From Escherichia coli (GTDB lineage Bacteria > Pseudomonadota > Gammaproteobacteria > Enterobacterales > Enterobacteriaceae), in the NCBI RefSeq assembly GCF_044647545.1, contig NZ_CP172818.1: DNA of 64,000 nt; one strand, 5' to 3'. Positions 43,030-43,106 of this stretch are shown piece by piece. How positions within the stretch are numbered: position 1 is the stretch's first letter; every line of letters starts with the position of its first letter. Both the position numbers and the translations under genes were made by a program. Under the pieces are notes generated by a model that was not told the DNA's origin, did no database searches, and saw only the letters and a program-made list of their open reading frames with translations.

Positions 43030-43106
43030 AAAAAAAAAAAAAAAAAAAAAAAAAAAAAAAAAAAAAAAAAAAAAAAAAAAAAAAGAAGAAAAAAATCAAA
43101 AAAAAA
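43030..43106. repeat. poly(A)/poly(T) homopolymer tract
   Basis: 55 uninterrupted A (43030–43084) continuing as AAAAGAAGAAAAAAATCAAAAAAAAA; between glmZ and the hemY 3' end. Confidence 0.9.

What the first reader, a model, noticed from the sequence alone, without database searches (positions are those of the whole stretch)
43030..43106. 55-nt pure poly(A) run downstream of hemY, next to glmZ
An uninterrupted A55 followed by A-rich sequence sits directly 3' of the hemY terminator hairpin (on the minus strand it extends the terminator's T-tract to >50 T). Bacterial chromosomes essentially never carry homopolymers this long, and a tract like this would be highly unstable during replication. Most plausibly it is an inflated terminator T-run (assembly or polymerase-slippage artefact); less plausibly a real expansion or captured polyadenylated sequence.
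Basis: seen in the sequence. Interest (0 to 1): 0.45.

Follow-up and report, generated by a model that had tools for sequence, protein, structure and literature searches.

The report
Sequencing junk replacing a real gene
The 55-A run is in the sequence record but is almost certainly not in the bacterium: it lies inside 136 bases of degraded base calls that replace 571 real bases, including a whole 196-codon gene, in one poor-quality E. coli genome record.

Summary
In detail: A55 lies at 43030-43084 and A9 at 43098-43106, between GlmZ (Rfam, 218 bits) and the hemY terminator. It is not a biological feature. The window is E. coli of the ST648 lineage and is 100% identical to close relatives up to 42961 and, apart from one error at 43105, from 43098 on. 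Between those points relatives carry 571 bp with a 196-aa orphan gene. The window has 136 nt of junk there (80 A, 30 T, 23 C, 3 G). The first 30 junk bases are the true sequence with mostly G dropped. The window keeps both ends of the gene-bearing spacer type. A second patch 14 kb away (about 56715-57654) is a degraded copy of a SAM-hydrolase-family gene with the same error signature. There G is lost first, 86% of substitutions copy a neighbouring base, and interrupted runs become C11, A13 and T20. None of 5,426 complete E. coli genomes has the junk. The true terminator T-run is 7. All three garbled sites fall in segments that K-12-type genomes lack. That suggests poorly filled gaps in a guided assembly, but this step is inferred. 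The verdict is a record artefact of low interest.

The parts
42722..42928 (+). GlmZ sRNA gene with its intrinsic terminator (stem 42894-42923 plus T-run). It is intact.
   Evidence: Rfam RF00083, 218.4 bits, full length. Terminator scan. 100% identical to NZ_CP033850.
42932..42961 (-). Correct remnant: the last about 30 nt (3' end) of the 196-aa orphan gene found in relatives. It shows that the window's genome is the gene-bearing spacer type.
   Evidence: 100% identity to L001 up to 42961. Empty-site genomes have a different spacer.
42962..43029 (.). Left junk, 68 nt with a single G. It is a degraded copy of the start of the true 571 bp.
   Evidence: The first 30 nt are an exact subsequence of the true sequence, and mostly G is skipped. 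Alignment score is 43, against 28 +/- 4.5 for shuffles and 22 +/- 7 for random real segments, of which 32 of 3000 reach it. No match in 5,426 E. coli genomes.
43030..43084 (.). The A55 run, the fully degenerate core of the junk patch.
   Evidence: Absent from all relatives, whose longest A/T run in this spacer is 7.
43085..43106 (.). Right junk, GAAGAAAAAAATC plus A9. The A9 is a corrupted copy of the true AAAAAAATA.
   Evidence: Alignment resumes at 43098 with a mismatch at 43105. Right-edge comparison.
43107..43131 (-). hemY intrinsic terminator hairpin. In relatives it is a 10-pair stem followed by T7. In the window the outer 2 pairs are lost to the 43105 error.
   Evidence: Terminator scans of the window and of L001.
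43132..44328 (-). hemY, intact, 398 aa.
   Evidence: ORF list. Annotation of relatives.
56715..57654 (.). Second junk patch in the same record. It is a degraded, roughly length-preserving copy of a 300-aa SAM hydrolase/halogenase-family gene and its upstream spacer. It contains C11, A13 and T20 runs.
   Evidence: Aligned end to end with relatives. Errors ramp from 0 to about 40% and stop abruptly at 57655. Shares the G-first, neighbour-copy error signature.
16946..16980 (.). Third small garbled site, upstream of ppiC. About 20 nt of the relatives' sequence are replaced by GGGGCC-like junk.
   Evidence: No complete genome shares this version; the best full-length match is 88.4%.

Best explanation
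The A55 is an artefact of the sequence record, not a feature of the chromosome. The real genome, like its ST648-lineage relatives, carries 571 more bases here. These hold a 196-aa orphan gene on the minus strand, running from just upstream of the hemY terminator to a stop codon that overlaps the GlmZ terminator T-run. In the deposited consensus the interior of that segment was filled with very low-quality base calls. Reading left to right, the calls first lose G, then collapse into copies of neighbouring bases, then into a pure A run. Correct sequence resumes abruptly at the hemY terminator. Shown here: the replacement, the degraded-copy relationship, the shared error signature at a second patch, and uniqueness to this record. 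Inferred: the junk comes from untrimmed single-read tails or failed gap filling in an assembly guided by, or scaffolded on, a genome that lacks these accessory segments. The sequencing platform cannot be determined from the sequence.
For: 1. The window is 100% identical to NZ_CP033850 over 42000-42961 and 99.9% over 43098-44000. Between those points there are 136 nt in the window and 571 bp, with a 196-aa CDS, in the relative.
2. Junk composition is 80 A, 30 T, 23 C and 3 G, against balanced composition in the true sequence. The first 30 nt are an exact subsequence of the true sequence, and G accounts for 18 of the 32 skipped bases when 35 nt are threaded.
3. The window keeps both ends of the gene-bearing spacer type. 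Natural empty-site genomes have a different spacer and a different terminator hairpin.
4. A second patch at 56715-57654 aligns base for base with a real gene. Its error rate ramps from 0 to about 40% and stops at 57655. True GCGTTTTTTTCATTTTTGTTT becomes G-G-T20 and true TAATAAAAATAAC becomes an A13 run. Early errors hit 20% of G against 1-3% of other bases, and 147 of 171 later substitutions equal a neighbouring called base.
5. Outside the patches the window is near-perfect ST648 lineage: it matches ST648 at 1702 of 1712 sites that discriminate ST648 from K-12.
6. None of 5,426 complete E. coli genomes carries the junk or the garbled site at 16.9 kb. The 30 best matches all span the same 1,136 bp, so the spacer is length-stable.
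7. All three garbled sites lie inside the only segments of the window with no K-12 counterpart, and patch 2 ends exactly at the K-12 homology boundary.
8. A 49-aa ORF that exists only because of the G dropped at 56715 is on record from one NCBI contig of 4,499,902 bp, whereas relatives are 4.9-5.3 Mb.
9. A50/T50 runs in species-representative genomes occur almost only in MAG or draft contigs. Of 146 such runs, 83 lie within 150 nt of a locus end.
Against: No reads or quality values are available, so the artefact is inferred from comparison, not seen directly. Similarity between the left junk and the true sequence fades after about 35-40 nt and is only moderately significant on its own: 32 of 3000 random real segments score as well. 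Patch 1 is 435 nt shorter than the truth, whereas patch 2 roughly keeps its length, so the two need not have arisen in exactly the same way. The reference-guided sub-hypothesis lacks SNP-level support, since the window shows no K-12 allele bias. The fourth structural difference, the missing 1.5-kb insertion and corA mosaic, turned out to exist naturally in metagenome contigs, so it cannot be counted as evidence.
Confidence: 0.95

Rival explanations
1. The terminator T-run was inflated. The hemY terminator's T7 was expanded to more than 50 by polymerase slippage, either in vivo or during library preparation or sequencing, with nothing else changed.
For: The run lies near the terminator hairpin, and homopolymers are slippage-prone.
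Against: T55 is not contiguous with the terminator T-tract; T9-GA-T7-C-TTC separates them. Slippage cannot delete 571 bp with a gene or create the 68 nt of G-depleted junk on the far side. The T7 is invariant in length in the listed relatives.
Confidence: 0.02
2. A real deletion-substitution. In this isolate the orphan gene was truly deleted and replaced by an A-rich tract, for example by aberrant repair or untemplated synthesis.
For: The sequence is in a deposited record. Accessory genes are often lost, and empty-site alleles exist.
Against: Natural empty sites have a different, clean spacer. The junction shows a G-dropout gradient rather than a sharp breakpoint. The same kind of degradation affects two other sites in the same 64 kb. 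An A55 tract would be highly unstable in replication (general knowledge).
Confidence: 0.02
3. A captured polyadenylated cDNA. An RNA with a poly(A) tail was reverse-transcribed and inserted.
For: It has a poly(A) tail-like shape, with unique sequence followed by a pure A run.
Against: The 68 nt before the A-run match nothing in 5,426 E. coli genomes and instead track the local true sequence. No target-site duplication is visible at the edges. There is no reverse transcriptase context. The insertion would also have to have removed 571 bp.
Confidence: 0.005

Closest known systems
Untrimmed low-quality read tails or failed gap filling carried into a deposited consensus (a sequencing and assembly artefact)
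   Same: The error rate rises gradually and recovers abruptly. One base (G) is lost first. Miscalls copy neighbouring bases, so near-homopolymers become pure runs. The sequence finally collapses into one long homopolymer. The feature is unique to one record while all relatives are clean, and the same record has several such patches.
   Different: The platform and pipeline are unknown. Patch 1 is much shorter than the sequence it replaces. The patches sit in the middle of a 4.5-Mb contig rather than at contig ends, where most public A50/T50 runs are found.
Intrinsic (Rho-independent) terminator U-tract
   Same: A G+C-rich hairpin with a T-run lies next to the feature on the minus strand.
   Different: Real terminator tracts are about 7-9 T. 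Here the true tract is T7, and T55 is separated from it and lies where a gene should be.
Natural long or variable homopolymer tracts: phase-variable contingency loci, and poly(A) tracts of AT-rich endosymbionts and Mollicutes
   Same: A pure homopolymer in a bacterial genome. Some A50/T50 hits were in Buchnera, 'Ca. Shikimatogenerans' and Mycoplasma records.
   Different: From general knowledge, contingency tracts are about 8-20 nt, vary among related strains, and lie in promoters or reading frames. Here there is no tract at all in relatives, and the genome is 51-52% G+C E. coli.
Retrotransposed poly(A)-tailed inserts (eukaryotic processed pseudogenes, LINE/SINE)
   Same: The layout is unique sequence followed by a poly(A) run.
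   Different: There is no donor sequence, no target-site duplication and no reverse transcriptase, and local DNA was replaced rather than interrupted.

Membership tests
Sequencing/assembly artefact (degraded base calls in consensus) | The feature is confined to one record, and the corresponding sequence is intact in close relatives. | tested here: met
   No match to the junk in 5,426 complete E. coli genomes. Relatives carry 571 bp with a 196-aa gene.
Sequencing/assembly artefact (degraded base calls in consensus) | The anomalous sequence is a corrupted copy of the true sequence, with an error gradient. | tested here: met
   Patch 1: the first 30 nt are an exact subsequence with mostly G skipped, and the alignment is only moderately significant. 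Patch 2: the gradient is unambiguous over 940 nt.
Sequencing/assembly artefact (degraded base calls in consensus) | The same error signature recurs elsewhere in the same record. | tested here: met
   Patch 2 at 56715-57654 and a small site at 16946-16980. G is lost first and substitutions copy neighbours.
Sequencing/assembly artefact (degraded base calls in consensus) | Raw reads or quality values give low or no support. | not testable with these tools
   No reads or quality values are available, and the source record could not be named.
Intrinsic terminator T-tract (expanded) | The T-run immediately follows the hairpin and is the only thing changed. | tested here: not met
   T55 is separated from the hairpin by T9-GA-T7-C-TTC. 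571 bp are missing. The true tract is T7.
Phase-variable homopolymer (contingency locus) | The tract is present at varying length in related strains. | tested here: not met
   The 30 best relatives all span an identical 1,136 bp, and the two gene-bearing relatives' spacers read in full (L129, L133) have a longest A/T run of 7.
Retro-inserted polyadenylated cDNA | The sequence upstream of the poly(A) is copied from a transcribed donor, and target-site duplications flank the insert. | tested here: not met
   No donor in 5,426 genomes. No duplication is visible at the edges.

The most novel reading that the evidence does not exclude
The isolate truly carries an A55 tract in place of the orphan gene between glmZ and hemY. 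That would be by far the longest stable homopolymer known in an E. coli chromosome, sitting beside a regulatory sRNA gene.
Probability: 0.02. Interest if true: 0.6.

Novelty: not a real feature. Interest (0 to 1): 0.04.

Why it matters
Biologically it does not matter. Practically, this record silently loses at least two genes and distorts the GlmZ-hemY spacer, and gene callers have already put junk-derived ORFs into protein databases. Long pure homopolymers flanked by base-depleted sequence are a cheap flag for such patches when public genomes are scanned. Downstream screens should filter them before treating them as biology.

Tried and rejected
1. I tried to name the source record. Eight of nine garbled-region ORFs are not in the protein collection. 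One 49-aa ORF is there (NCBI, a single 4,499,902-bp contig), but the position index has no entry for it. The window's hemX allele is too widespread to identify the record.
2. I first counted the missing 1.5-kb DUF943/DUF3289 insertion and the mosaic corA 3' end (59595-59739) as a collapsed-repeat artefact. I withdrew this because the same CorA protein and the corA-yigF arrangement occur in independent metagenome contigs of other lineages.
3. I tested for K-12 reference bias at SNP level and found none, 10 of 1712 sites. 'K-12 as the mapping reference' is therefore not shown. Only the coincidence of junk with non-core segments stands.
4. I considered that the window might be synthetic or model-generated. 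This is rejected because a junk-specific ORF is on record from NCBI and the core follows one lineage at 99.4% of discriminating sites.
5. Pfam, NCBIfam, PADLOC and PHROGs give nothing for the overwritten 196-aa gene.

Full report
**Observation.** The window has an uninterrupted A55 at 43030-43084, then GAAGAAAAAAATC and an A9 at 43098-43106. Chance cannot produce this: at A = 0.235 the expectation is about 1e-30 per 64 kb (my arithmetic). Outside two odd patches, the longest homopolymer in the window is 8. GlmZ is at 42722-42928 (Rfam RF00083, 218 bits). hemY is at 43132-44328 on the minus strand, with a terminator-like hairpin at 43106-43126.

**What relatives have at this locus.** The window is E. 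coli of the ST648 lineage.
- A 701-nt query across the site matched 5,424 of 5,426 complete genomes. The best hits came in two pieces spanning 1,136 bp where the window has 701.
- Direct comparison with NZ_CP033850 shows 100% identity up to window 42961 and 99.9% from 43098.
- In between, the relative has 571 bp carrying most of a 591-nt minus-strand CDS for a 196-aa hypothetical protein, WP_001260227.1. The window has 136 nt there.
- That gene's stop codon overlaps the GlmZ terminator T-run. Its start lies about 20 nt from the hemY terminator, which in relatives is a 10-pair stem followed by T7.

**The 136 nt are degraded sequence, not an insert.**
- Their composition is 80 A, 30 T, 23 C and 3 G, whereas the true 571 bp are balanced.
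- The first 30 nt are an exact subsequence of the true sequence. When 35 nt are threaded, 18 of the 32 skipped bases are G.
- A semi-global alignment of the 68 nt left of the A-run to the true start scores 43. Shuffles give 28 +/- 4.5, with none of 300 reaching 43. Random real E. coli segments give 22 +/- 7, with 32 of 3000 reaching it. This is moderate evidence on its own, and the similarity fades after about 35-40 nt.
- At the right edge the A9 is a miscalled AAAAAAATA, with the error at 43105. That error also removes the two outer pairs of the terminator stem.
- The 68-nt junk has no counterpart in 5,426 genomes.
- The window keeps 30 nt on the left and 26 nt on the right that are specific to the gene-bearing spacer type. 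Natural empty-site genomes, K-12 included, have a different spacer with a different hairpin, CCCGGAGG...CCTCCGGG. The genome that was sequenced therefore carried the gene.

**A second, clearer patch in the same window.**
- Homopolymers cluster at 57061-57631: C11 twice, A13 and T20.
- This stretch aligns end to end with relatives. It corresponds to a 300-aa SAM hydrolase/halogenase-family gene (NCBIfam partial matches) and its upstream spacer.
- Differences per 50 columns rise from 0 at 56650, to 1-4 by 56850-56950, to 10 at 57000, then to 15-23 through 57650. They fall to 0 from 57655.
- The long runs are visibly built from interrupted runs. True GCGTTTTTTTCATTTTTGTTT appears as G-G-T20, true TAATAAAAATAAC as an A13 run, and true GGCCCCACCTG as G-C11.
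- In the early part, 14 of 19 errors hit G: 20% of G is wrong, against 1-3% of the other bases. In the severe part, 147 of 171 substitutions equal a neighbouring called base.
- This is the same G-first signature as in patch 1.
- A third, small garbled site lies at 16946-16980. No complete genome shares that version.

**Quality of the rest of the window.** Outside these sites the window agrees with the ST648 genome apart from about 60 scattered differences. Several of those are homopolymer errors in the comparison genome, which is itself annotated as frameshifted there. At 1702 of 1712 sites where ST648 and K-12 differ, the window has the ST648 base.

**Where the junk falls.**
- Against K-12 MG1655, the window's homologous blocks are 1-16945, 16981-42931, 43133-56673 and 57655-64000.
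- The three garbled sites lie exactly in the three gaps between these blocks, and patch 2 ends to the base at the K-12 homology boundary.
- I infer that the record was built or scaffolded with guidance from a genome that lacks these accessory segments, and that the segments were filled from very poor data, such as single-read tails or failed gap filling.
- Two findings limit this inference. There is no SNP-level K-12 bias. And the fourth structural difference, the missing 1.5-kb DUF943/DUF3289 insertion with a mosaic corA 3' end, is unique among complete genomes but has natural parallels in metagenome contigs of other lineages, so I do not count it.

**The record is real and public.** A 49-aa ORF has a C-terminus (...SGADGILM) that exists only because of the G dropped at 56715. 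The true protein reads ...SGADWNIDVKKCAK. That ORF is in the protein collection from NCBI, on a single contig of 4,499,902 bp. Relatives are 4.9-5.3 Mb, which fits a record that has lost accessory DNA. I could not obtain the record's name.

**Base rate for such runs.** These are almost all in MAG or draft contigs, and some contigs are only 78-128 nt long. Of the 146 runs, 83 lie within 150 nt of a locus end.

**Verdict.** The A55 is a record artefact (confidence 0.95). It is the fully degenerate core of a 145-nt corrupted stretch (42962-43106) that overwrites a real 196-aa orphan gene and damages the hemY terminator. It is not an expanded terminator tract, a contingency locus or a retro-inserted poly(A) sequence; each of these fails a defining feature tested here. 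The interest score is very low. The practical value is as a warning about this record and as a simple filter for genome scans.

Noticed in passing
window 56715-57654: Second junk patch. It is a degraded copy of a 300-aa SAM hydrolase/halogenase-family gene, which 2,294 of 5,425 matched genomes cover at 80% or more and which K-12 lacks, together with its upstream spacer. It contains C11 twice, A13 and T20. Errors ramp up from the left and stop exactly at the yigE stop codon, 57655.
   Followed up: yes
window 16946-16980: Small garbled junction upstream of ppiC. About 20 nt present in relatives (AGGATGAGGCTGGCTATACTACCACG) are replaced by GGGGCC-like sequence. K-12 has an 831-bp yifN pseudogene region here. 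No complete genome shares the window's version (best 88.4%).
   Followed up: yes
window 59593-59739 (corA 3' end): Relatives have a 1.5-kb DUF943 + DUF3289/YPO3983 insertion flanked by a 147-nt corA 3' repeat, and the window lacks it. The window's corA is a mosaic of the two copies, giving SSDGMNF instead of SSYGMNF next to the conserved GMN motif. This version is unique among 5,426 complete genomes (best 97.7%). However, the same CorA protein occurs in three metagenome contigs of other lineages, so it may be natural.
   Followed up: partly
L001 1728-2318 (minus strand); corresponds to window 42932-43082: The overwritten gene is a 196-aa orphan with a hydrophobic N-terminal region. It has no Pfam, NCBIfam, PADLOC or PHROGs match. 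It is present between glmZ and hemY in roughly 694 of 5,426 complete E. coli genomes. Its stop codon overlaps the GlmZ terminator T-run, so it converges on GlmZ. Carriers also have a different hemY terminator from empty-site strains.
   Followed up: partly
window 38983 (tRNA-Leu, 38912-38997): The C-run in the T-arm and acceptor region is C7 in the window, C8 in K-12 and C9 in the ST648 comparison genome. This is probably a 1-nt homopolymer error in both non-K-12 records. ARAGORN still calls the tRNA.
   Followed up: partly
window 44370 (hemX): A 24-nt (8-codon) difference in the GGTGCA (Pro-Ala) repeat of hemX relative to strain ST648. The window's 403-aa allele is widespread, listed in 1,057 index blocks, so this is natural repeat-number variation.
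   Followed up: yes
L006-L125 (genome-contig scan): Species-representative genomes in public collections hold at least 146 A50/T50 runs of up to 1,006 nt. They are concentrated in MAG and draft assemblies and at contig ends. One Buchnera MAG and several long-read MAGs have many runs each.
   Followed up: partly
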